Assembly (NCBI GenBank): GCA_020279385.1 | Contig: GCA_020279385.1_4133.1 | Direction: 5' to 3' (one strand) | DNA from: a phage | Length of the DNA: 51,819 bases | Notes under the pieces: model-generated | What the model was told of the DNA's origin: nothing | Database searches by the model: none | Seen by the model: only the letters and a program-made list of their open reading frames with translations | Part shown: one piece after another, positions 1 to 51,819 of the stretch | Numbering within the stretch: the stretch's first letter is position 1 | Layout: each line of letters opens with the position of its first letter | Position numbers and translations under genes: made by a program

Positions 1-1528
1 AATTTCTTTCTTCCAGCATTGGAAGCAAGTGCCCTTCTATCCTCTTCATTACGCCAGCCTGACCAACGAAAGGTTTTACCTTTCTCGCTGATTCGTACAG
101 GGCGCGAATATTCAGGATCCCTTTGTTCGCCTTGCCGTGCCTCGTGATCAATTCAATCAATTTGCCCATTTCAGCATCATCACCAGCATAACCAGAAGCA
201 TTTGCGGCGCTAATGTATGTTTTGCTCAATTCCTGAAACATGATCAACGCCTCTTGCATTGTTTCCACGTCGATCTCTTTCGACTTCTGCGGGTATCCAG
301 CAGGATTAAACCAGTTGCGGATAACATGCAGGACGGAAGCAAGCCTGATCACCTGTTTATCCATTTTACCAAGCGCACCGCGTAACATTGTATGAGAATA
401 CTTTCCTCCGTCTGCAAGATGCGGTTCCATATCCTGGCGAGCAATGTTGAGCACTCGCATAGCTGAACGGCTTATTTTCAGCGATATATTTGATTCGCTC
501 ATGATGTTATGCACCAATTGATAATATTGGGCTTTCAATTCAGAATCCACCGCCTCATAGGTAGAATCACCATTTTCATCAATGAATGAGCGACGGCCTA
601 AGAATGATTCCTCGCGGACCAACAAAAAACGCTCACTAACACCGATGCCTCGCGATCCAGCGTCCATGATTCCGCTTATCGTTTCATCCTGGGCTATAAC
701 GCTCATACATCCAAGCGCGCGAAAACTCATATTATTGTCAGCATTAGCACGGGCAATTGATACGTGACCATTATCCCACGCCTTAAGCACTAGCTCACTG
801 TTAGTCTTCCTTTCGCTATTTGCATAGGTCAAGCCTAACAGACTGTTAATACTTGTTGCTTCGTCAGATATTACGGCAAAGTTACCTTGCTTGTTGTTGA
901 TTTTCGCCAAGCCTTCTGGAGTTGTATCTGAAACAGGAAAAGTTATATCACACATTTTTTCCAGCTTTTCCTCCAGATCCTCTTTTTCCTGGTATAGAGA
1001 TTTCATATCAGCGCCGGATCTTTCGCTTTTCATCTCCTTTGCAAGACCTGCCAGCTTTGCCTGTATTTTCTTTCTTTCCTTGCGGCGTTGCTCGTTGATC
1101 TTCTCAACTTCCGCAATCATCGGAGCGATAGCCATGCTGTTGATCGCAGATTTACCAGTTGACGGCGGCTGGCTTGTAACGACGTAAAGCGCAGTCGGCT
1201 GATCGGTTCCGTGATAGTCAACCGTAAAACGTCCAAGCATAGCGGCAGAAATGCAGCCGATAAAGTGCATGTAAGCCGATGATTCAGGGAATTGAACGGA
1301 TCGCGCAATGCTGCGTGATAACTTGCCGACAACATCAATATCATTACCAAGAGAAATAACGGGGTAGCGATCGTGACCGCTATTCACATCCTTTACGTCG
1401 CCCCAAAAGCTGGACGACTGGCGATAGCCGTTAGCCTGAATTGATACGCGAACTGGTGAAAGGTTCTGGCTTTCAGCCATAGCGATTATTTGCTGTGGAG
1501 TTAATTTGTTCGTTTCTAATGAAAACAT
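1..1528 (-). CDS. Large hypothetical protein, at least 509 aa in window; C-terminus runs off the window start
   Basis: Uninterrupted minus-strand frame from ATG at 1528-1526 (AAGGAG RBS upstream) to position 1; absent from the ORF track because it has no in-window stop; function unknown. Confidence 0.7.
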   Translation of the reverse strand, partial: MFSLETNKLTPQQIIAMAESQNLSPVRVSIQANGYRQSSSFWGDVKDVNSGHDRYPVISLGNDIDVVGKLSRSIARSVQFPESSAYMHFIGCISAAMLGRFTVDYHGTDQPTALYVVTSQPPSTGKSAINSMAIAPMIAEVEKINEQRRKERKKIQAKLAGLAKEMKSERSGADMKSLYQEKEDLEEKLEKMCDITFPVSDTTPEGLAKINNKQGNFAVISDEATSINSLLGLTYANSERKTNSELVLKAWDNGHVSIARANADNNMSFRALGCMSVIAQDETISGIMDAGSRGIGVSERFLLVREESFLGRRSFIDENGDSTYEAVDSELKAQYYQLVHNIMSESNISLKISRSAMRVLNIARQDMEPHLADGGKYSHTMLRGALGKMDKQVIRLASVLHVIRNWFNPAGYPQKSKEIDVETMQEALIMFQELSKTYISAANASGYAGDDAEMGKLIELITRHGKANKGILNIRALYESARKVKPFVGQAGVMKRIEGHLLPMLEERN

Positions 1529-1580
1529 TCGTTAGCTTCTCCTTTGTGGGCCGTAAATTTTAACGGCCCAATACTACCCC

Positions 1581-1602
1581 GTTTTGTCAAAAAGTGCTAT
1601 TT
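1581..1602 (-). promoter_or_regulatory. Copy of conserved intergenic element AATAGCACTTTTTGTTAAAAC (variant), about 55 nt upstream of the 1528 start
   Basis: Read directly: reverse complement matches the element found in about 19 copies. Confidence 0.5.
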
Positions 1603-1813
1603 GATCCGCTCTATTGCAACCAGAAGTCGATCAGGCTGGCGGTCGCTGTAGCATTCTCCTGTAATCCCATCTTTAAACGTAAAGTAAAGCGCCTTATGAT
1701 ATGAAAAACCAATCAGCCAGCCTACCGCCGTTTTTTGATGGGCCTGACTATATCGCCAGGCTTGAAAGTCTTTGTGGTAGAATGCGTTACTTTGTAACGG
1801 TTTTCACTGTTTA

Positions 1814-2200
1814 TCACAGATATTTGCCCTCAAACAGATAACATCCGCCAGCAGAGAATCCGACCTCTTCACGGTACAGGTTCCAGCGGTCGCCGCACTC
1901 ATCAAAAACATAACCCGCAACGCTTCCAAGCGGTCGCCCTTTCTCGATCTGGTATCGCTTGCCCTGCTTAAAGTGCTTTTTGCACGGCATGTTATGATCT
2001 ACAAACGTGCAAAGAACGGTTTTTGTGTTAATGGCGCGGTAATCATCTCGGTTTGCTGGAAGCCAGCGGCTACCCTTAACAAGCGTCTTAACCTGGAACT
2101 CTTCCACCTCGATCACATCATCACTTCCTGCAATCTTCTGATAAACCGTTTTAAAACGGCCTTTCATCAATACGTTGGTTTCATTACAGATAACATTCAT
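1814..2200 (-). CDS. Hypothetical protein (128 aa)
   Basis: ORF with AAGGAG RBS before ATG at 2200. Confidence 0.6.
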   Translation of the reverse strand: MNVICNETNVLMKGRFKTVYQKIAGSDDVIEVEEFQVKTLVKGSRWLPANRDDYRAINTKTVLCTFVDHNMPCKKHFKQGKRYQIEKGRPLGSVAGYVFDECGDRWNLYREEVGFSAGGCYLFEGKYL

Positions 2201-2254
2201 GATCAGATCTCCTTTGTTTGTTCGATGTGATTATGCCAGGTTTTTACACCTGGC

Positions 2255-2276
2255 TTTTAACAAAAAGTGCTATTTT
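2255..2276 (-). promoter_or_regulatory. Conserved intergenic element copy; contains the TAG stop of the 2270-2956 gene
   Basis: ttttaacaaaaagtgctatttt on plus strand; hairpin ccaggt/acctgg and CATAAT lie between it and the 2200 start. Confidence 0.5.
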
Positions 2277-2956
2277 GAGTTTGACTCAAAGACGGCGCGA
2301 GCAAATCCGCGCGGAGTGAGGGAGCGTAGTTGCTTTGTTCTGGCAGACTTACCTCCTAAAAACTTCCAACCCCAAAAGAACATTACGCCCTCATCATTGG
2401 ATAACGGCTTGCGTTCCGGTTCGGTAAATCCGTTGCCGCACCAGATAGCCGTCCTTTTAGTGTAGCCATCCTTTAGCGGCATTTTGGGGTGAAATGACCC
2501 ATCGGATTCGTCCAGGTAGTTACCAAAATCGCGCGGATTGAAATAAAAATCCGGCTTGCGCCATAGCGTTGATAGTCGGCCTACCGGATTCTCAGCCATC
2601 CAGGGAACACCGAAATGATTTCCGACTTTTTCAACCATGATTGCATTTTGGAGCGCGATATGAATATCGTCTTCGCTGCGCACATGCTTACTTCCTGATT
2701 GGGCGAACATGGTGCAGTCTGGAAAGCCAAATACAATATCAGGTTTTGGAATATCCATCTTAATGATGTTTTCAATGAAATTTTCATCAATCCACATATT
2801 CACATAATGCAGATTTTCATGCTTCATTTTGATGAAATATTCTCCGTGATTGCCTTCGTCAGCGTTAAAGCAATAGCATTGATAACCAGCCTTCGCATAT
2901 TCAAGCAACATGATTCCAGATCCATCAAACATTGAGTAAGCAACTTTATTTCCCAT
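2270..2956 (-). CDS. Short DNA C5-cytosine methyltransferase-like protein with atypical catalytic motif
   Basis: F-D-G-S-G (motif I-like) and DIVFGFPDCTMFAQSG resembling the PCQ motif IV region, plus ENP (ENV-like); start taken at internal ATG just after the HNH stop; no target-recognition domain evident. Confidence 0.45.
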   Translation of the reverse strand: MGNKVAYSMFDGSGIMLLEYAKAGYQCYCFNADEGNHGEYFIKMKHENLHYVNMWIDENFIENIIKMDIPKPDIVFGFPDCTMFAQSGSKHVRSEDDIHIALQNAIMVEKVGNHFGVPWMAENPVGRLSTLWRKPDFYFNPRDFGNYLDESDGSFHPKMPLKDGYTKRTAIWCGNGFTEPERKPLSNDEGVMFFWGWKFLGGKSARTKQLRSLTPRGFARAVFESNSK

Positions 2957-4942: not shown

Positions 4943-4965
4943 TTTTTAACAAAAAGTGCTATTTA
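4943..4965 (-). promoter_or_regulatory. Conserved intergenic element copy immediately after the stop of 4963-5226
   Basis: ttttaacaaaaagtgctattta read on plus strand. Confidence 0.5.
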
Positions 4966-5662: not shown

Positions 5663-5916
5663 TTTTTCTTCTCCTGCAATAAGCAAACATCATTGATAAA
5701 ATCAGCACGGCCCTTAATGTTGCTGATGTGGAGCGTCTTTTCAGCGTACAGGCCATCACCTTCAATCACGATCATTACGCGAGTCGGTTTATTCACGGGC
5801 GCACACGAAAAGAGTGGGCGCGCCGGAAGAAATTTAGTAGCCACATCCAGGTTAGCCCTGGCGGCCCTGCAAAATGCCTCCGCCAGATCCAAATCATTTT
5901 CGGTAATCACCGCCAT
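5650..5916 (-). CDS. Hypothetical protein (88 aa), paralog of 5453-5662
   Basis: ATG with GAGGAG RBS; shared VxIEGD...FINDVC pattern. Confidence 0.5.
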   Translation of the reverse strand: MAVITENDLDLAEAFCRAARANLDVATKFLPARPLFSCAPVNKPTRVMIVIEGDGLYAEKTLHISNIKGRADFINDVCLLQEKKKCWM

Positions 5917-6188
5917 TACTTCTTGATCTCCTCACTGATAAATTTCAGCACCTGACGCAAGAAAACCTCGTTGTTGATAGTCGCTGGCAATTCTTCCTTC
6001 ACTTCTTGCGGCAGATAGATATTGCCGTGCCAGGTCAAGCAATCGTAGTTGATACGATAAGAGCAAAGCCACTCGCAATCGTTATCTGCTTCCCAAATGC
6101 AGAGTTGCAGAACATCGCCAAAATCTTCAACAGTCAGATCCAGACCGTGACGCTTAGCGAAGTTGAAAGTGGTTTTGCTGATGTTCAT
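5916..6188 (-). CDS. Hypothetical protein (90 aa), first gene of the leftward block
   Basis: ATG with AGGAG RBS. Confidence 0.55.
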   Translation of the reverse strand: MNISKTTFNFAKRHGLDLTVEDFGDVLQLCIWEADNDCEWLCSYRINYDCLTWHGNIYLPQEVKEELPATINNEVFLRQVLKFISEEIKK

Positions 6189-6247: not shown

Positions 6248-6269
6248 GTTTTAACAAAAAGTGCTATTT
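6248..6269 (-). promoter_or_regulatory. Conserved intergenic element copy upstream of the leftward block
   Basis: gttttaacaaaaagtgctattt on plus strand, about 60 nt from the 6188 start. Confidence 0.5.
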
Positions 6270-6298: not shown

Positions 6299-6390
6299 TA
6301 ATCAAAAGTAATCATTCGTAATCAAATCACGTCAAAATGATGATTGCCTTTGCAAATTTGATGAGAAAAGTAATCACGTTTAATCATTGG
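6299..6390. repeat. Iteron-like direct repeats of (G)TAATCA at about 10-bp spacing
   Basis: TAATCA at about 6299, 6309, 6319, 6371, 6381 plus inverted tgatgattg at about 6338. Confidence 0.5.
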
Positions 6391-6560
6391 TTGCAGGGGA
6401 GATAGTGAAACCTTCCCCTCTTTCCTCACTTTTCCGCCCGGCTGTCAGTGGTTGTTGTCTTTTGTTCACCCCTGTTACCGATTTCAGGCGGCGTGTTTCC
6501 GCGCGGTTTTCCGGTGTAGCGAAAACGGAAAAAACAAAAAAAATCCTATATAATACATTG

Positions 6561-6750
6561 AAAATAAAGATTATTTATTTATATATATCTATAATGTTTT
6601 CTTTTTGTTCTCACTGTTACAGTGCTTTTTTTTGGGTGTGGTGTGGTTGTGTGTTGGTATATATGGATAGTTGCGCGCGCGGCGGATTGCATATGTATAT
6701 ATACTTTTTCCGGCGGATTGCGTTAACAGCGTGAACAGAAAAATAACAGC
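6561..6750. repeat. AT/GT-rich non-coding element A, homologous to 36796-36974
   Basis: Shared blocks ttatttatttat, GT-rich tgggtgtggtgtggttgtg, catatgtatatata..ccggcgg, gaacagaaaaataaca. Confidence 0.6.
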
Positions 6751-6822
6751 CCTGAAATCAACAACTTGCGCATGATTTTGTAGTTTTTCGATATTGGTAA
6801 CGTTTTGAATACAACAAAAACA

Positions 6823-6850
6823 TTGACACGCACCAAATAGCTTTTATAAT
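6823..6850 (+). promoter_or_regulatory. Consensus sigma70-type promoter for the rightward early block
   Basis: TTGACA, 16-nt spacer, TATAAT, followed by GGAGGAAAGG RBS and ATG 6882. Confidence 0.65.
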
Positions 6851-7346: not shown

Positions 7347-7606
7347 TGAAAAAGGCATTAATCGGCGTTTTGGCGGCAATGGCATTCCTGACCGGATGCG
7401 AAAAGGCATCAGAATCAACGGTTGTCGTAGGCGTGGAGTCAGATTTTAAAGTCGGTCGCCTGTTCACTGTTGACGGATGCACAGCATACAGATTCTATGA
7501 TAACGGTCGCGCGATCTATTACACCAACTGCAAAGGCGCAACGGATAGCACGTACAACAGCGGAAAGAACGTAATGCACCAGCAAGTCACAACAGATATT
7601 AAATAG
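7346..7606 (+). CDS. Putative lipoprotein (86 aa)
   Basis: MKKALIGVLAAMAFLTGC signal peptide with lipobox; GAGGAGG RBS; TAATG coupling. Confidence 0.6.
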   Translation: MKKALIGVLAAMAFLTGCEKASESTVVVGVESDFKVGRLFTVDGCTAYRFYDNGRAIYYTNCKGATDSTYNSGKNVMHQQVTTDIK

Positions 7607-7622
7607 CACTTTTTGTTAAAAC
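7601..7622 (+). promoter_or_regulatory. Conserved intergenic element copy containing the TAG stop of 7346-7606
   Basis: aaatagcactttttgttaaaac, then GC-rich dyad and CATAAT before the 7679 start. Confidence 0.55.
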
Positions 7623-8065: not shown

Positions 8066-8085
8066 ATAGCACTTTTTGTTAAAAC
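8064..8085 (+). promoter_or_regulatory. Conserved intergenic element copy
   Basis: aaatagcactttttgttaaaac containing the stop of 7880-8065. Confidence 0.55.
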
Positions 8086-29265: not shown

Positions 29266-29619
29266 TTGGCTAACCTGGAAATGTTTAAGTGGTGTACACA
29301 AATCCAGAGCAGCGGCGGTAGCATGACCACTGAGGACAACGTTAGGGAGGTTGTTTTCGGTAACGGTTACACTCAAGTTGCATCCTCTGGATTCAACACG
29401 ACAAAGCGGAGCTTTACGGTTGTGTACGCTGGCGCTGATTACAAGGATGTGATCAGCTTTATGCAGAGGCATTTGATTAAGCCTTTCGCGTGGGTCGCTC
29501 CTGACGGAAATGCTGGATTATTCAGGGTTAAAACTGGAACAATCGCAGCTAAACCAATCTCCCCAACCACTCAGGAGGTAACGGCGACTTTCGTCGAGCA
29601 GTTTACCAGCATGGAATAA
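29266..29619 (+). CDS. Minor tail protein M-like
   Basis: Probable TTG start 7 nt after AAGGAGG; position after tape measure. Confidence 0.6.
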   Translation: MANLEMFKWCTQIQSSGGSMTTEDNVREVVFGNGYTQVASSGFNTTKRSFTVVYAGADYKDVISFMQRHLIKPFAWVAPDGNAGLFRVKTGTIAAKPISPTTQEVTATFVEQFTSME

Positions 29620-29688: not shown

Positions 29689-30441
29689 ATGGCTACAGGC
29701 AAAGAAGAATTTGAAAACTGCTTACAGAGCCTTTACCCTGGCGAGATCATGACGCTTGTCGAGGTTGACGGCTCTAAGTTCGGCGCTGGCGTTTACAGGT
29801 TCCACAATGAGAACGTGCAATACACGCCGGAGGAGATTATGAGGGCGGTTGAGAGCGGCACGCTACCGCCTAAGGAAATTATTTTCCAGGGCGAGGCATA
29901 CGGTGCGCGGCCTTTCGGGATCACTGGTATTAGCTTTACAAGTGACGGCAAGGCCGGAAAGCCGGAGTTAACCCTGTCAAACATTGACAGCCAGGTATCC
30001 GCACTTATCCGATCATTTAATGGGATGATGCAAGCAAAGGTCACAATATGGGTAACGTCAAAAGAAATGATTCAGAGTGACGGCAGCGTAAAAGACGGCG
30101 CTTATCGTAAACTGGTCTACTACGTCGAGCGGCCTAGCTACTGCAACAAGAGCATAGCACGCTTTGAGCTTACATCGCCGTATGATATGGATGGTATAAT
30201 GATCCCTCCGCGAATCACTCAGAGCGTTTGCTATTGGGCGCAGCGTGGATGGTATCGAAGCGGAAAGGGTTGCAGCTATAACGGATCGCGAATGTTCGAC
30301 AAGGACAATAACCCTGTAACGGATCCGAGCCTTGACCAATGCGCGGGAACATGCACGGCGTGCAAACTGCGTTTTGGTGCGGATCAAGAGTTGGATTTTG
30401 GCGGCTGCGCCGTCGCATCACTTTTAAGGAGCTACCAATGA
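29689..30441 (+). CDS. Minor tail protein L-like
   Basis: C-terminal Cys cluster (CAGTCTACK...GGC); AAAGGAGG RBS. Confidence 0.7.
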   Translation: MATGKEEFENCLQSLYPGEIMTLVEVDGSKFGAGVYRFHNENVQYTPEEIMRAVESGTLPPKEIIFQGEAYGARPFGITGISFTSDGKAGKPELTLSNIDSQVSALIRSFNGMMQAKVTIWVTSKEMIQSDGSVKDGAYRKLVYYVERPSYCNKSIARFELTSPYDMDGIMIPPRITQSVCYWAQRGWYRSGKGCSYNGSRMFDKDNNPVTDPSLDQCAGTCTACKLRFGADQELDFGGCAVASLLRSYQ

Positions 30442-36353: not shown

Positions 36354-36388
36354 TTAAAAAGGGGCTTTTGCCCCTTTATTTTTATTTA
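36354..36388. terminator. Bidirectional terminator between convergent genes
   Basis: A-run, ggggcttttgcccc, T-run. Confidence 0.6.
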
Positions 36389-36613
36389 CAGACTGCAATC
36401 AGCGTTTTTAAAGTTATCAATGCTCACCCACTGAAAATTAAATGGATAGCCAGCCTTGACAAGAGTGCGGTCGCCAACTCGTTTTGCCCCAAAGATAGCA
36501 ACTGAATACTGCATTCCGCTATTTTCATAAATAGCCGTGCATTCACGTTTAGGCATATTTGCGCAACCAGTCAGCGCAACGGCTGCGATTAAAACTGCAA
36601 TTAACTTTTTCAT
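36386..36613 (-). CDS. Outer-membrane lipoprotein, candidate Cor-like superinfection exclusion protein
   Basis: MKKLIAVLIAAVALTGC lipobox; small; antisense immediately after tail genes; AAGGAG RBS. Confidence 0.5.
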   Translation of the reverse strand: MKKLIAVLIAAVALTGCANMPKRECTAIYENSGMQYSVAIFGAKRVGDRTLVKAGYPFNFQWVSIDNFKNADCSL

Positions 36614-36667: not shown

Positions 36668-36688
36668 GTTTAGCAAAAAGTGCTACTT
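36668..36688 (-). promoter_or_regulatory. Conserved intergenic element copy upstream of the lipoprotein gene
   Basis: gtttagcaaaaagtgctactt on plus strand. Confidence 0.5.
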
Positions 36689-36795
36689 GTTATTTTTTGT
36701 TTTACGGTGTTATCGAATTTAAGACGGCGTAAATTTAGCTCAAATTTTAGCCAATATAAGAACAATAAATAATCAATAAAATAGATATATACATA

Positions 36796-36974
36796 TAAAA
36801 TCAATAGTTTATTTATTTATGTATGTATATTTGTTTTTTCTTGTTATCTGTGTTTCTTGTGGTTTTGGTTGTTTGTGGTGATTTTTCTTTCTGAGTATCT
36901 GCATGTGCCATCATTCATGTGTATGTATATAATCCGGCGTATCTTAGAGAACAAGGGAACAAGAAAAATAACAC
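36796..36974. repeat. AT/GT-rich non-coding element B, homologous to 6561-6750
   Basis: tttatttatttatgtatgtat, tgtggttttggttgtttgtggtg, catgtgtatgtatataatccggcg, gaacaagaaaaataaca. Confidence 0.6.
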
Positions 36975-37055
36975 ATGTTAATCATTAACTTACGCGTCAG
37001 ATTTGTTTTCTTGCCATCTTAGAACGTTTAGAAAACAGAAAAAACAAAACAACTA

Positions 37056-37083
37056 TTGACTAAATCAACCAAATGGCTACAAT
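37056..37083 (+). promoter_or_regulatory. Sigma70-type promoter for the recombination module
   Basis: TTGACT, 16-nt spacer, TACAAT; spacer shares CCAAAT.GC with the 6823 promoter. Confidence 0.6.
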
Positions 37084-38230: not shown

Positions 38231-38899
<669 letters not shown>

Positions 38900-44023: not shown

Positions 44024-44079
44024 AGTTTATTGTAATGAGTCTATTATATACTCCAAATGGCATTTTTTAAAGGTTTAAG

Positions 44080-46077: not shown

Positions 46078-46496
46078 TGGCTATAACTGATAAAGGAGAT
46101 TATCTTGAGTTTTACGAAAGAGATCCAACAGACACGAGAAAGGAAGTTAATCACCAGATAGATAGTTTTCAGTGGTTGACTTATGCTCATCCTTACTTGC
46201 TGGCGTGGCATACGGTAAACGAGAATGAGAAGTCGAAAGTAACGGCGATGATTGATCAGCAGTCCGGCTTGGTTAAGGGGGTAAGCGATTTCATCATCCT
46301 GATTGGTTCAAACGGAAAATACCCCTTTGCAGCGATTGAGATCAAACGAGTGAATAAATCAGGCAAGGGGAAAGCATCACCAGTCAGCGATGAACAAAAG
46401 GCTTTTTTGCGTCGCGTTCGCAGCTTAGGAGGATTCGCTGCGGTCGCCTACGGATTTAATCAGTTTAAGTTAGCTATTGAATACATGCTTAAATAG
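46077..46496 (+). CDS. VRR-NUC domain nuclease
   Basis: DFIILIG...AAIEIKR (D..ExK core); ATG overlaps helicase stop. Confidence 0.6.
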   Translation: MAITDKGDYLEFYERDPTDTRKEVNHQIDSFQWLTYAHPYLLAWHTVNENEKSKVTAMIDQQSGLVKGVSDFIILIGSNGKYPFAAIEIKRVNKSGKGKASPVSDEQKAFLRRVRSLGGFAAVAYGFNQFKLAIEYMLK

Positions 46497-46512
46497 CACT
46501 TTTTGTTAAAAC
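46491..46512 (+). promoter_or_regulatory. Conserved intergenic element copy
   Basis: aaatagcactttttgttaaaac with TAG stop of 46077-46496, then hairpin ggcgcgatggattgcgcc and CATAAT. Confidence 0.55.
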
Positions 46513-51286: not shown

Positions 51287-51307
51287 GTTTTAACAAAAAA
51301 TGCTATT
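51287..51307 (-). promoter_or_regulatory. Conserved intergenic element copy with hairpin, inverted relative to the 47562 copy
   Basis: gttttaacaaaaaatgctatt preceded by cccgacactaggccggg on plus strand. Confidence 0.5.
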
Positions 51308-51423
51308 CCATACGCTTTACCGTAACCAGTAATACACCATCATCATTGCATAAAACATGTTCAGTGGTGCTAAAAGCGCGCATATCTGAATAAAGTAGCG
51401 TAAGTAAAGCATGAATAAAATCC

Positions 51424-51819
51424 TCATGTGATATTGAATTTACGGCGCAGTGCTTCAAGATCTTGTCTATTAGCTTTTGCCTGGAACAATTCATCATCGC
51501 CCATCTCCCCTATTCTAGCCATATCCCTGATCCAGTCGTTGCGCATACCATCCAGGCTATACAATTCGAATCCGAAAGGCCGCTTTGACGATCCTTTGGA
51601 CCAGTATTTACCGCAGACCCCATCTATATAGCCAGCCGTCATCATTCTTGCGCAAAATTCCTTAGATGCAAGGCTGGCGAACATTCGCGGCGTAAGTCCG
51701 GCGGCCCGTGCGAGCCGCTCACATTCTCTATGCTGATAGATAAATTTGGCTATGTGCTGCCTGTTAAACCAGTCGTATGACTCACACCATTTATACAGAT
51801 CAAGCAAAAACATAATCAT
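51424..51819 (-). CDS. Hypothetical protein (131 aa), start at or beyond window end
   Basis: ATG at the last three bases of the window; purine-rich RBS would lie at window positions 1-15 if the ends are contiguous. Confidence 0.45.
   Translation of the reverse strand: MIMFLLDLYKWCESYDWFNRQHIAKFIYQHRECERLARAAGLTPRMFASLASKEFCARMMTAGYIDGVCGKYWSKGSSKRPFGFELYSLDGMRNDWIRDMARIGEMGDDELFQAKANRQDLEALRRKFNIT

What the first reader, a model, noticed from the sequence alone, without database searches (positions are those of the whole stretch)
6561..6750. Element A: about 190-bp AT/GT-rich non-coding block at the leftward/rightward strand switch, homologous to a second block 30 kb away
The 600-bp gap between the divergent early blocks holds a block with alternating purine-pyrimidine runs (atatatat, gcgcgcgcg), a GT-rich tract (tgggtgtggtgtggttgtgtgttggt) and a duplicated ccggcggattgc. 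It aligns at roughly 65-70% with 36796-36974, segment by segment, in the same orientation. Both copies lie 70-100 bp upstream of near-consensus sigma70 promoters that share CCAAAT.GC in the spacer. Conservation of a non-coding block within one genome suggests function: a replication origin, an enhancer of early transcription, or a small-RNA locus.
Basis: seen in the sequence. Interest (0 to 1): 0.6.

Follow-up and report, generated by a model that had tools for sequence, protein, structure and literature searches.

The report
Twin origin-like regions of T1-like phage
Two related non-coding stretches of about 350-400 bp sit at the same two places in every T1-like phage examined; each holds the most easily melted DNA of the genome, flanked by protein-binding repeats and host IHF sites and leading into an early promoter, which makes them the best candidates so far for the unknown replication origins, or early-gene control hubs, of this phage family.

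Summary
Window 6451-6850 (A) aligns with 36686-37083 (B) at 67% identity in the same orientation, far above shuffled controls. The window is a T1-like phage (Drexlerviridae, about 98% to SECphi27).

A profile of the two copies finds the element at the same two syntenic positions in all Tempevirinae loci and weakly in T1. A lies in the pac-proximal gap. B lies upstream of recE-erf-ssb.

In six complete genomes of four lineages, the two least stable 60-bp duplex segments genome-wide are always the AT cores of A and B. The cores are bracketed by short lineage-specific motifs largely confined to A and B. In T1, all six genomic TGTAACA copies lie there. IHF consensus sites are 12-fold enriched at two fixed positions.

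No RNA structure, Rfam hit, DnaA-box cluster, or plasmid or E. coli homologue was found.

- Best reading (0.4): paired origin-like unwinding modules fused to the early sigma70 promoters, comparable to SPP1 oriL/oriR.
- Main rival (0.35): purely transcriptional control regions.
- The small-RNA idea is rejected.

Function is inferred, not shown. The element appears undescribed.

The parts
6451..6519 (+). Left extension of element A. It holds a T-rich TGTT arm (6453-6478), which is a copy of the arm at 6595-6620, and a GGCGGCG box. The homology with B (36686-36750) starts here.
   Evidence: SW alignment coordinates; direct repeat D1 6453-6478 / 6595-6620, 73%.
6520..6540 (+). Left A-rich arm M1 of element A (GAAAACGGAAAAAACA). 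It is a direct repeat of M4 and the inverted complement of M2.
   Evidence: D5 6521-6536 vs 6807-6822; I14; conserved as AACAAAAAGAACAAA in the family alignment.
6535..6594 (.). AT core 1 of element A: 12% GC, the second least stable 60-bp duplex of the whole window. It is the centre of an imperfect dyad.
   Evidence: Nearest-neighbour stability z=+4.84; the next non-element site is +3.37. Self reverse-complement BLAST hit 6533-6609. It is the most conserved block of the family, TTATTTATATATATCTATTTGT.
6595..6620 (-). T-rich arm M2, which reads AACA-rich on the minus strand. TGTT occurs at 6595, 6606 and 6615. It forms an inverted repeat with M1 and M4.
   Evidence: I1 (6593-6620 vs 6797-6824, 71% complementary); (orientation pattern of AACA/TGTT).
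6612..6633 (+). Terminator-like hairpin CACTG-tta-CAGTG followed by T8. It is not conserved in relatives and is probably incidental.
   Evidence: absent at the aligned position in other members.
6634..6658 (+). GT-rich tract (gggtgtggtgtggttgtgtgttgg).
   Evidence: conserved as tG.tT.t.gTg in the family consensus.
6657..6705 (.). AT core 2, an alternating purine-pyrimidine block. GTATATATGG ... GCGCGCGCG ... ATGTATATATAC, with inverted arms 6657-6669 and 6692-6704. It is homologous to core 1.
   Evidence: I5; D3 6569-6587 vs 6685-6703, 79%; conserved T.TAT.TAT.
6680..6721 (+). Two exact copies of CGGCGGATTGC (6680-6690 and 6711-6721). The second corresponds to the family-conserved CCGGCG.AA box.
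   Evidence: D6.
6721..6749 (+). Direct repeats GTTAACAG / GTGAACAG / ATAACAG (module M3). The variant of the repeat differs between phages but is the same within an element.
   Evidence: e.g. GGTAACA x2, TGTAAC x2, GTCAAC x2; GATTAACAC x3 in T1 A; GTGAACA enriched in TLS A and B.
6756..6768 (+). Exact IHF consensus AATCAACAACTTG (WATCAANNNNTTR), centred about 95 bp upstream of the predicted start site. This is IHF site 2.
   Evidence: conserved family-wide as WATCA.NNNCTTA; 43 exact hits in 55 unique elements against 3.6 +/- 2.0 in shuffles, clustered at relative positions 0.1 and 0.67.
6807..6822 (+). A-rich arm M4 (GAATACAACAAAAACA) abutting the -35 hexamer, in the position of an UP element.
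   Evidence: D5; conserved aaaca..aa.aAcA directly before TTGAC.
6823..6850 (+). Consensus sigma70 promoter TTGACA-16-TATAAT of element A, with CCAAATAGC (6833-6841) in the spacer. It drives the DUF7174 gene (ATG 6882).
6249..6267 (-). Leftward copy of the 21-nt family repeat ATAGCACTTTTTGTTAAAA, 61 nt upstream of the first leftward gene (5916-6188). It lies outside the homologous block but marks the left boundary of the divergent gap.
36686..36756 (+). Left extension of element B: a TGTT arm 36696-36714 and a GACGGCGTA box 36717-36731.
   Evidence: (D1, D2 of the B region).
36764..36823 (.). AT core 1 of element B: 10% GC, the least stable 60-bp duplex of the window. It contains the exact IHF consensus AATCAATAGTTTA at 36799-36811 (site 1). 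GAACA at 36760 forms the left arm.
   Evidence: z=+4.96; I1/I2 (dyad 36774-36800 / 36817-36843, 78%).
36830..36856 (-). T-rich arm M2 of B (TGTT at 36832, 36842, 36851). The 12-nt TTTGTTTTTTCT is exactly complementary to AGAAAAAACAAA in M4.
   Evidence: I6 (36830-36841 vs 37037-37048, 100%).
36857..36885 (+). GT-rich tract of B (tggttttggttgtttgtggtg).
   Evidence: alignment.
36905..36941 (.). AT core 2 of B (CATGTGTATGTATATAA) followed by the CCGGCGTA box. TGTATGTATAT repeats at 36820 and 36920.
   Evidence: D5, D2.
36946..36974 (+). Direct repeats GAGAACAAG / GGAACAAG / ATAACAC (module M3 of B).
   Evidence: GAACA at 36949, 36957; TAACA at 36969.
36980..36992 (+). IHF-like site 2 of B, AATCATTAACTTA (one mismatch to the consensus), aligned with 6756-6768.
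37031..37055 (+). A-rich arm M4 of B (GAAAACAGAAAAAACAAAACAACTA) abutting the -35 hexamer.
   Evidence: 90.9% match to 6521-6542.
37056..37083 (+). Sigma70 promoter TTGACT-16-TACAAT of element B, with CCAAATGGC (37069-37077) in the spacer. It drives exoVIII/recE (ATG 37114), erf and ssb.
36668..36686 (-). Leftward copy of the 21-nt repeat (GTAGCACTTTTTGCTAAAC), upstream of the 75-aa lipoprotein (cor-like) gene 36386-36613.

Best explanation
A and B are two copies of a cis-acting DNA module, not an RNA and not coding. Every T1-like phage examined carries it at two fixed places: just inside the pac end, and upstream of the recE-erf-ssb operon.

Each module has the same layout:
- An extremely AT-rich core, the most easily melted DNA in the genome.
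- Short repeats bracketing the core in inverted and direct orientation. Their sequence is specific to each phage lineage.
- One or two IHF bending sites.
- An A-tract that abuts an early promoter read by host sigma70 RNA polymerase.

I think the modules are most likely the phage's replication origins, or an origin plus a cis-acting partner, as in SPP1 oriL/oriR.

The proposed mechanism is as follows. A lineage-specific phage protein binds the repeats. IHF bends the DNA. Negative supercoiling builds up behind the strong early promoter and, at A, behind the divergent leftward unit. Together these open the AT core, so that the phage DUF3987 helicase and the primase can load without DnaA.

The promoter-proximal third (A-tract at the UP position, IHF site at about -95, distal A-rich repeats) would also boost early transcription, so the two roles are coupled.

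Shown: homology, conservation, synteny, duplex instability, motif confinement, IHF-consensus enrichment, promoters. Inferred: protein binding, melting, initiation.
For: (1) Real homology between A and B.

(2) Family-wide conservation at both syntenic positions. The nhmmer profile hits A-type and B-type loci of Tempevirinae at E 1e-13 to 1e-76, and T1 A and B at about 3-5e-4, always in the same orientation relative to the downstream operon.

(3) In six complete genomes the two least stable 60-bp segments genome-wide are the cores of A and B. The genomes are the window, SECphi27, TLS, T1, KP36 and Rogue1. The cores score z 4.5-6.0, while the next site scores <=3.75 in five of the six. This holds even where primary sequence similarity to the window is no longer detectable.

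(4) Lineage-specific motifs are confined to A and B and bracket the core:
- T1: TGTAACA, 6 of 6 genomic copies.
- KP36: GTAAGAT, 12 of 19 copies (p about 8e-20). The palindrome TAAGATnnATCTTA occurs only in B.
- Rogue1: TACGCGTA occurs only at A and B.
- TLS: GTGAACA, 4 of 8 copies.
- Window: AACA/TGTT density is 3-3.6 times the genome mean, with the same + / - / + / + orientation pattern in both copies.

(5) A and B evolve in concert within a genome. KP36 shows 86% identity over 132 columns with a 55-nt identical run, and Rogue1 shows 82%. This fits one trans-acting factor.

(6) IHF consensus sites are 12-fold enriched at two fixed positions, one of them inside the AT core. An IHF site inside an AT-rich segment is a feature I recall from the pSC101 and R6K origins (my knowledge, not checked here).

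(7) In KP36 and Rogue1 the promoter downstream of B is of the 21-nt-repeat type, not the sigma70 consensus type, yet the core plus motifs are kept. The core's role therefore does not depend on one promoter class.

(8) B always lies in or next to the recombination/replication gene block. In KP36 it abuts the primase gene.

(9) No origin is known for T1-like phages and no initiator has been recognised (PMC11447400, PMC7718038). The phages do encode a DUF3987 helicase and a primase.

(10) There is a precedent. SPP1 has two origins of similar organisation (direct repeats plus an AT-rich DUE), far apart in a pac-type siphovirus genome (PMC6316719).
Against: - There is no experimental evidence of initiation at either site.
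- No initiator was identified. The repeats are short (6-9 nt), few in the window itself, and vary in spacing (8, 9, 12-13 nt), unlike classical 17-22-bp iterons.
- No DnaA-box cluster.
- GC skew is uninformative. It follows gene orientation and shows no step at B.
- The modules are contiguous with strong early promoters. Their orientation relative to the promoter is strictly conserved, even after inversion in KP36. A purely transcriptional role explains this equally well.
- In T1 A, the two TGTAACA copies overlap the predicted -10/+1 region, 200 bp from the core, which looks like an operator.
- AT-rich, unstable DNA upstream of strong promoters is common.
- The motifs were chosen post hoc. They remain significant after correction for about 8000 k-mers in KP36 and T1, but are weak in the window.
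Confidence: 0.4

Rival explanations
1. A and B are purely transcriptional control regions of the two main immediate-early promoters. The A-tract at -40 to -60 acts as an UP element. IHF at about -95 bends the DNA and brings distal A-rich repeats or bound regulators to RNA polymerase, as recalled for lambda pL. The lineage-specific repeats are operators of a phage regulator that shuts off or boosts early transcription, possibly by looping. The AT core is a supercoil-sensitive element, as recalled for the ilvPG upstream region.
For: - Consensus sigma70 promoters are part of the conserved block in nearly all members: TTGAC-N16/17-(A/T)NAATGC.
- A and B carry the two best intergenic sigma70 promoters of the window.
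- An A-rich tract abuts the -35 hexamer, and the IHF consensus lies at a conserved distance.
- Orientation relative to the promoter is invariant, even in the inverted KP36 module.
- In T1 A the TGTAACA inverted pair overlaps the -10/+1 region.
- KP36 has 14-bp palindromes typical of HTH-dimer operators, one of them about 70-90 bp upstream of the recE promoter.
- All four exact CCAAATRGC copies lie in spacers of sigma70-like promoters, which suggests a regulator acts on this promoter class.
Against: - Conserved architecture reaches -330 or further, well beyond usual upstream activating regions.
- The most conserved and most extreme feature, the AT core, is 230-290 bp from the promoter.
- In T1 B all four specific motifs bracket the core, 225-390 bp upstream of the promoter.
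- Two other sigma70-like promoters with the same spacer motif (38844 and 44071-) lack the element.
- The core and motifs persist in KP36 and Rogue1 B although the promoter there is of a different type.
- There is no 10-11-bp A-tract phasing.
Confidence: 0.35
2. A is the packaging recognition region (pac). Clusters of terminase small-subunit binding repeats and an IHF site flank the cleavage zone, as recalled for P1 pac. B is a secondary or vestigial pac-like site.
For: - The T1 RefSeq record starts at the terminal repeat (repeat_region 1..2800), and its A element lies at 210-540.
- The TLS record starts at the restriction-mapped pac, and its A element lies at 194-519.
- Mapping precision was low, so the true cut could lie in the core.
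- Repeat clusters plus IHF resemble P1 pac (my recollection).
Against: - B is equally conserved, is 30 kb away, and travels with the recE operon.
- The T1 and TLS literature that I know of, or read here, describes a single pac and gives no second series of ends (my recollection for T1).
- The SU57 authors could not see a pac fragment.
- A pac role does not explain the conserved promoter linkage.
Confidence: 0.07
3. The elements are relics of an old duplication, kept similar by recombination between the two copies. They serve mainly as homology anchors for modular exchange at the edges of variable early regions and have no dedicated function beyond the promoters.
For: - A copies are often closer to B copies than to other A copies.
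- There is evidence of gene conversion, such as the 55-nt identical run in KP36.
- The early region next to A is highly mosaic. The gene downstream of A was found in only 2 IMG/VR loci.
Against: - Duplex instability is conserved in six genomes even where the sequence has diverged beyond detection.
- Positions of the IHF sites are conserved.
- Lineage-specific motif arrays argue for selection on function.
Confidence: 0.06
4. The block encodes a small regulatory RNA. For example, an RNA of about 78 nt could start after TATAAT at 6546 and end at the hairpin plus T8 at 6612-6633.
For: A -10-like TATAAT and a terminator-like hairpin exist in copy A.
Against: - No Rfam family matches.
- RNAalifold gives zero conserved pairs on either strand.
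- The hairpin is not conserved. The TATAAT is TATAAC in many members, and there is no -35.
- Indels are frequent.
Confidence: 0.02

Closest known systems
Bacillus phage SPP1 oriL / oriR (two origins bound by gp38)
   Same: Both are pac-type siphoviruses of about 44-52 kb with two distant non-identical regions of similar organisation: direct repeats plus an AT-rich DNA unwinding element. In SPP1, AT-rich islands are the strongest compositional outliers of the genome. One site is proposed to act as a fork barrier that triggers the switch to recombination-dependent concatemer synthesis by an exonuclease, an annealase and an SSB (PMC6316719). Here B sits directly upstream of recE-erf-ssb.
   Different: There is no sequence relationship. 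No gp38-like initiator, DnaB-type helicase or loader was recognised here. SPP1 oriL lies inside the initiator gene, whereas both T1-type elements are intergenic and fused to promoters. Function is demonstrated in SPP1 and only inferred here.
Satellite phage P4 ori and crr (my recollection, not checked here)
   Same: P4 has two separated cis regions carrying the same short octamer (TGTTCACC, whose complement is GGTGAACA). The T1-type primase is annotated as P4 alpha-like. GTGAACA is the enriched repeat in TLS and is present in window A.
   Different: The window has only one exact GTGAACA in A and none in B. The primase here covers only the N-terminal half of the long primase profile and has no recognisable ori-binding domain. 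Other genera use unrelated motifs.
SaPI-type origins: short iterons flanking an AT-rich region, melted by a self-loading Rep helicase (my recollection)
   Same: Short island-specific repeats (6-8 nt) lie on both sides of an AT-rich segment of about 60-80 bp, with no DnaA boxes. A helicase of a family typical of mobile-element replicons (DUF3987) is encoded by the phage.
   Different: Binding of the DUF3987 helicase to the repeats is untested. There are fewer repeats here. IHF sites and a fused promoter are not SaPI features.
Lambda pL upstream region (IHF plus distal UP element) and the ilvPG IHF/supercoil-destabilised upstream region (my recollection)
   Same: Each has a sigma70 promoter with an A-rich tract at the UP position, an IHF site about 90 bp upstream, further A-rich DNA beyond the bend, and a strongly destabilised AT-rich upstream segment.
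   Different: The conserved block here extends to about -400, is duplicated in the genome, and carries lineage-specific repeat arrays around a core 230-290 bp from the promoter.
Phage P1 pac site (hexamer clusters plus IHF; my recollection)
   Same: Clusters of a short repeated motif flank a central zone, with an IHF site. Copy A lies about 200 bp from the mapped genome end in T1 and TLS.
   Different: A second equally conserved copy lies 30 kb away. No GATC or Dam-methylation motif occurs in the elements. Cleavage has not been mapped to the element.

Membership tests
Repeat-plus-DUE phage/plasmid replication origin (SPP1 oriL/oriR type) | AT-rich DNA unwinding element of low duplex stability | tested here: met
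   The cores of A and B are the two least stable 60-mers genome-wide in 6 of 6 genomes, z 4.5-6.0.
Repeat-plus-DUE phage/plasmid replication origin (SPP1 oriL/oriR type) | Repeated initiator-binding sites next to the DUE | tested here: inconclusive
   Lineage-specific short motifs confined to A and B bracket the cores. They are short, few in the window, and variably spaced. Binding is untested.
Repeat-plus-DUE phage/plasmid replication origin (SPP1 oriL/oriR type) | A cognate origin-binding initiator encoded by the element's genome | tested here: inconclusive
   Candidates exist but none is linked to the motifs: a Cro/YdaS-like HTH next to the primase, and a DUF3987 helicase with a small downstream protein. 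The KP36 motif is absent from the promoter gap of its HTH regulator.
Repeat-plus-DUE phage/plasmid replication origin (SPP1 oriL/oriR type) | Replication initiates at the site | not testable with these tools
   This needs marker-frequency analysis, 2D gels or plasmid amplification assays.
DnaA-dependent origin (oriC-like) | Cluster of DnaA boxes TTWTNCACA | tested here: not met
   With up to one mismatch there are 91 hits in the window against 125 expected. None lies in A and one weak hit lies in B.
P4 ori/crr | Multiple copies of the type I octamer TGTTCACC in both regions | tested here: not met
   GTGAACA occurs once in A (6731) and not at all in B. It occurs 9 times in the window overall.
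P4 ori/crr | Alpha-type primase-helicase with a C-terminal ori-binding domain | tested here: not met
   The primase is 335 aa. It matches only positions 6-316 of the 667-position primase profile, plus Zn_Ribbon_Prim.
UP-element / IHF upstream activating region of a sigma70 promoter (lambda pL type) | Functional-looking sigma70 promoter downstream | tested here: met
   12/12 and 10/12 matches to the consensus, conserved across the family.
UP-element / IHF upstream activating region of a sigma70 promoter (lambda pL type) | A/T-rich tract at -40 to -60 and an IHF site upstream | tested here: met
   M4 abuts the -35 hexamer. An exact IHF consensus lies at 6756-6768, is conserved, and is 12-fold enriched over shuffles. 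This is sequence-level evidence only.
UP-element / IHF upstream activating region of a sigma70 promoter (lambda pL type) | IHF- and upstream-DNA-dependent promoter activity | not testable with these tools
   This needs reporter fusions, footprinting and ihf mutant hosts.
Structured small RNA / Rfam family | Match to a covariance model, or conserved secondary structure with covariation | tested here: not met
   No Rfam hit at gathering thresholds. RNAalifold gives 0 pairs on both strands.
pac site of a headful phage | Located at the packaging-series start | tested here: inconclusive
   A lies about 200 bp inside the record start, which is the mapped pac or terminal repeat, in T1 and TLS. B is not at any known end.
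Cruciform / long hairpin element | Thermodynamically stable inverted repeat | tested here: not met
   DNA folds of the dyads are only marginally better than shuffles (z -1.2 to -2.4, and +0.3 for T1 B).

The most novel reading that the evidence does not exclude
A and B form a functionally differentiated pair bound by one lineage-specific phage protein, as in SPP1 oriL/oriR or P4 ori/crr. One copy fires as the theta origin. The other, placed directly upstream of recE-erf-ssb, acts in cis as a partner or fork trap that converts early replication into recombination-dependent concatemer synthesis. Both are melted by IHF and by supercoiling from the early promoters rather than by a DnaA-like initiator. 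The same hubs would then couple early transcription, replication start and, at A, packaging start.
Probability: 0.15. Interest if true: 0.7.

Novelty: new member of a known kind. Interest (0 to 1): 0.5.

Why it matters
T1 is one of the seven classic T phages. T1-like phages (Drexlerviridae) are common laboratory and fermentation contaminants, phage-therapy candidates, and standard test phages for defence systems (SECphi27). Their replication origin and early regulatory circuitry are unknown. Recent genome papers state that no origin could be found (PMC11447400, PMC7718038).

This analysis turns one pairwise similarity into a family-wide, precisely delimited pair of candidate cis elements. It gives concrete sub-sites (AT core, lineage-specific repeats, IHF sites, promoter) that can be mutated or cloned. 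That makes both the origin question and the early-to-late switch directly testable.

It also flags that many GenBank records annotate spurious 'hypothetical proteins' across these elements.

Tried and rejected
- **Small RNA.** Rfam gathering scan of the whole window found nothing. RNAalifold on 22 members, both strands and the left half alone, gave zero pairs. Rejected.
- **Stable cruciform or hairpin.** DNA folding of the dyads is only weakly better than shuffles. The dyad is better read as a symmetric arrangement of A-rich and T-rich arms.
- **DnaA-dependent origin.** No box cluster.
- **Dam/GATC cluster.** No GATC in either element, although the genome has 315.
- **Intrinsic curvature.** No 10-11-bp phasing of A-tracts.
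- **Fis sites.** Three Fis-like matches lie left of the B core but none in A. They are not shared.
- **Internal sigma70 promoters in the AT cores.** Only -10-like hexamers occur, without a -35. The conserved TATAAT becomes TATAAC in many members. Not supported.
- **Homologues outside phages.** No match in 72,556 plasmids or 5,426 E. coli genomes.
- **Global identity comparison of the element with the exoVIII gene**. Cheap gaps inflated the identity, so it was not used as evidence.
- **The search for related loci with the gene downstream of A.** It returned only 2 loci. TerL with 10-kb flanks was used instead.
- **The Jahat_MG145 'repeat_region'.** I hoped it marked physical ends, but it is two 12-13-nt features. 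Uninformative.
- **Literature searches** for T1 origin, transcriptome or IHF dependence. No description of these elements was found. The Rtp genome paper is not held.
- **Test for higher A-B similarity within a genome than between genomes among Tempevirinae.** Only a modest effect (68 vs 56). The effect is clear only in KP36, Rogue1 and T1.
Full report
**Identity of the window**

BLAST of both regions against phage records gives 94-99% matches to Escherichia phages of Drexlerviridae/Tempevirinae, including SECphi27, tonnikala, tunus and swan01. In the SECphi27 annotation, element A lies in the divergent gap between a leftward block of small early genes and a rightward block that runs into the terminase and structural genes. 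Element B lies between a leftward cor-type lipoprotein gene and the rightward exoVIII(recE)-erf-ssb operon.

**Checking the observation**

Smith-Waterman alignment of the two gaps scores 94-95, with 67% identity over 387 columns in the same orientation. It spans 6451-6822 against 36686-37046.

| Comparison | Score |
|---|---|
| A vs B | 94-95 |
| Dinucleotide shuffles | 21.9 +/- 2.8 |
| 25-nt block shuffles (local composition kept) | 36.8 +/- 8.2, maximum 64 |
| Reversed control | 28 |

nhmmer with either copy finds the other as the only additional hit in the window, at E 6e-7 and 4e-11. The similarity is therefore real and not a composition artefact. It is about twice as long as reported, and it continues into the promoters at 6823-6850 (12/12 to consensus) and 37056-37083 (10/12).

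**Family-wide conservation**

I collected 43 loci around exoVIII homologues and 27 loci with 10 kb upstream of TerL homologues from IMG/VR. I added the complete genomes of SECphi27, T1, TLS, KP36 and Rogue1.

A profile built from A and B and iterated once finds the element at both syntenic positions in essentially all Tempevirinae loci, at E 1e-13 to 1e-76. It finds it weakly at both positions in T1, at 210-418 and 30006-30347 (E 3-5e-4). Every hit has the same orientation relative to the downstream operon.

T1 RefSeq position 1 is the start of the 2.8-kb terminal repeat. The TLS record starts at the restriction-mapped pac. In both genomes the A element begins about 200 bp inside that end. In TLS there is no leftward gene next to B, so divergent transcription is not a universal property of B.

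**Anatomy**

The family alignments and repeat analysis show a conserved order. Coordinates are for copy A.

| Part | Coordinates (A) | Note |
|---|---|---|
| T-rich TGTT arm and GGCGGCG box | 6451-6519 | Left extension |
| A-rich arm M1 | 6520-6540 | |
| AT core 1 | 6535-6594 | |
| T-rich arm M2 | 6595-6620 | Inverted complement of M1 and M4 |
| GT-rich tract | 6634-6658 | |
| AT core 2 | 6657-6705 | Shorter alternating purine-pyrimidine block |
| CCGGCG box | near 6711-6721 | |
| Two or three direct repeats | 6721-6749 | GTTAACAG, GTGAACAG, ATAACAG |
| IHF consensus | 6756-6768 | |
| A-rich arm M4 | 6807-6822 | Abuts the -35 hexamer |
| Promoter | 6823-6850 | |

AACA/TGTT tetramers are 3-3.6 times denser than the genome average. 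They show the same + / - / + / + orientation pattern in A and B.

The exact IHF consensus WATCAANNNNTTR occurs only five times in the window. Two of those lie in the elements, at 6756 in A and at 36799 in the centre of the B core. Across 55 unique family members there are 43 exact matches against 3.6 +/- 2.0 in shuffles. They cluster at relative positions 0.1 and 0.67. In the T1 group the site sits at the same place on the other strand.

**Not an RNA, not coding, not a stable hairpin**

- Rfam finds nothing.
- RNAalifold predicts no pair on either strand.
- The hairpin plus T8 in copy A is not conserved.
- Indels that are not multiples of three are frequent.
- DNA folding of the dyads is barely better than shuffles.

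**The decisive comparative results**

First, nearest-neighbour duplex stability. In the window the two least stable 60-mers are 36764-36823 (z +4.96, 10% GC) and 6535-6594 (z +4.84, 12% GC). The next site scores +3.37. The same holds in SECphi27, TLS and T1. It also holds in KP36 (Webervirus) and Rogue1 (Rogunavirinae), where the profile no longer detects the sequence. In all six genomes the two minima fall at position A and in the gap upstream of the recE operon. In KP36 that operon is inverted, and the B core has moved with it and abuts the primase gene.

Second, lineage-specific motifs are confined to the two elements and bracket the cores.

| Genome | Motif | Distribution |
|---|---|---|
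| T1 | TGTAACA | All 6 genomic copies lie in A (469, 494) or B (29932, 29966, 30075, 30093) |
| KP36 | GTAAGAT | 12 of 19 copies (Poisson p about 8e-20); palindrome TAAGATnnATCTTA only twice, both in B |
| Rogue1 | TACGCGTA | Only at 130 (A) and 26520 (B) |
| TLS | GTGAACA | 4 of 8 copies |

Third, A and B evolve in concert within a genome. KP36 shows 86% identity over 132 columns with a 55-nt identical run. Rogue1 shows 82% over 68 columns. T1 A and T1 B are each other's best match. Among Tempevirinae, A copies are often closer to B copies than to other A copies.

These three results point to selection for easy melting, and for binding of a lineage-specific factor that is presumably phage-encoded, at exactly two places in the genome.

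**Transcription context**

Only three intergenic strong sigma70-type promoters exist in the window: those of A and B, and a leftward one at 44071-44043 for the Cro/YdaS-like regulator and primase.

All four lie inside spacers of sigma70-like promoters, at 6823, 37056, 38844 (upstream of ssb) and 44071-. About 0.8 copies are expected by chance.

Its core, AAATAGC, also begins the 21-nt repeat ATAGCACnnnTTGnTAAAA described for TLS (PMC11447400). That repeat occurs 22 times in the window against 2.7 expected. It includes leftward copies at 6249-6267 and 36668-36686, which mark the left side of both gaps.

In KP36 and Rogue1 the promoter downstream of B is of this 21-nt type rather than the sigma70 consensus type, while the core and its motifs persist.

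**Interpretation**

The data establish a cis-acting DNA module with three linked parts: an unwinding-prone core flanked by specific repeats, IHF bending sites, and an early promoter with an A-tract at the UP position.

Two mechanisms fit. The first is paired replication origins, or an origin plus a cis partner. The closest documented precedent is SPP1. Its oriL and oriR lie far apart, share an organisation of direct repeats plus an AT-rich DUE, and are among the strongest AT islands of that genome. oriR is proposed to trigger the switch to recombination-dependent replication by an exonuclease, an annealase and an SSB (PMC6316719). In T1-like phages, B sits directly upstream of exactly such genes. 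From my own knowledge, SaPI origins (short iterons flanking an AT-rich region) and P4 ori/crr (two cis regions) are further analogues.

The second mechanism is purely transcriptional control. It would resemble the lambda pL arrangement of IHF plus distal UP element and the ilvPG supercoil-destabilised upstream region (both from my knowledge), with the repeats acting as operators.

I give the origin reading a slight edge, 0.40 against 0.35, for three reasons:
- The most conserved and most extreme property is the core, 230-290 bp from the promoter.
- In T1 B all specific motifs bracket the core rather than the promoter.
- The core module survives a change of promoter class.

No DnaA-box cluster exists and no initiator is recognised. 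The proposed melting by a phage protein, IHF and transcription-generated supercoiling, followed by loading of the DUF3987 helicase and primase, is inference.

A pac role for A (0.07) is suggested by its position but does not explain B. A relic or recombination-anchor reading (0.06) does not explain conserved instability after sequence divergence. The small-RNA reading is about 0.02.

**Novelty**

No homologue exists in plasmids or E. coli chromosomes. The accessible literature states that no origin has been found in T1-like phages and does not describe these paired elements. Many GenBank records annotate hypothetical proteins across them. I classify the element as a new member of a known kind: an origin-like or early control region. 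Interest is moderate to good, because it makes the long-unknown T1 origin and early switch directly testable.

Noticed in passing
window, 22 sites, e.g. 7603-7621(+), 8066-8084(+), 4944-4962(-), 6249-6267(-), 46493-46511(+): The 21-nt repeat ATAGCACTTTTTGTTAAAA, known from TLS with function unknown, occurs 22 times against 2.7 expected. It nearly always follows the direction of transcription. It typically starts right at the stop codon of the upstream gene (..TAATAGCAC). A GC-rich hairpin follows, then a (C/T)ATAAT-like hexamer about 22 nt after TTGTTA, about 60-75 nt before the next start codon. It looks like a promoter/terminator-type gene-boundary cassette.
   Followed up: partly
window 6833-6841, 37069-37077, 38852-38860, 44053-44061: All four exact copies of CCAAATRGC lie inside the spacers of sigma70-like promoters at 6823, 37056, 38844 (upstream of ssb, inside the end of erf) and 44071(-) (regulator/primase). 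AAATAGC also begins the 21-nt repeat. This suggests one regulator could act on both promoter classes. The motif is less well kept in TLS.
   Followed up: partly
L043 (IMGVR_UViG_2974632794_000001, Shigella phage 2019SD1-like) 1837-2004 and 2158-2315: The B element is split into two profile hits (model positions 11-174 and 156-310) by about 150 bp of extra sequence. The reported exoVIII match coordinates overlap it. This may be an insertion inside the element.
   Followed up: no
L076 (KP36) 29415-29474: KP36 has a third very unstable AT-rich site (z 4.76). It lies in the gap at the other boundary of the segment (tail fibre, ssb, erf, recE) that is inverted relative to T1 and TLS. It may be a trace of the inversion event involving the B element.
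   Followed up: no
window, whole; elements 6451-6850 and 36686-37083: GATC is frequent in the genome (315 sites, one per 164 bp, against about one per 256 expected). It is absent from both elements. The phage family encodes Dam-type methyltransferases.
   Followed up: partly
L076 110-415; L077 66-260 and 420-542; records under hits H1-H28: Public records annotate one to four 'hypothetical proteins' across the A and B elements (e.g. KP36 gp01, Rogue1 gp01/gp02). The window ORF 6387-6734 is of the same kind. Given the non-coding conservation pattern, these are probably false gene calls.
   Followed up: partly
(e.g. MG065640, MG065679, MG065643): Eleven to eighteen records named 'Campylobacter phage', 47-50 kb, match these T1-type intergenic regions at 72-77%. 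They look like T1-like genomes rather than typical Campylobacter phages.
   Followed up: no
window 36727-36774: Three of the twelve Fis-like matches (G..YW7R..C) of the whole window cluster immediately left of the B core. There is no counterpart in A.
   Followed up: partly
window 1-1456 and 51303-51819: By offset to SECphi27, the DUF3987 helicase gene and its small downstream neighbour appear to run across the ends of the window. This suggests the window is a complete, circularly permuted genome assembly.
   Followed up: no
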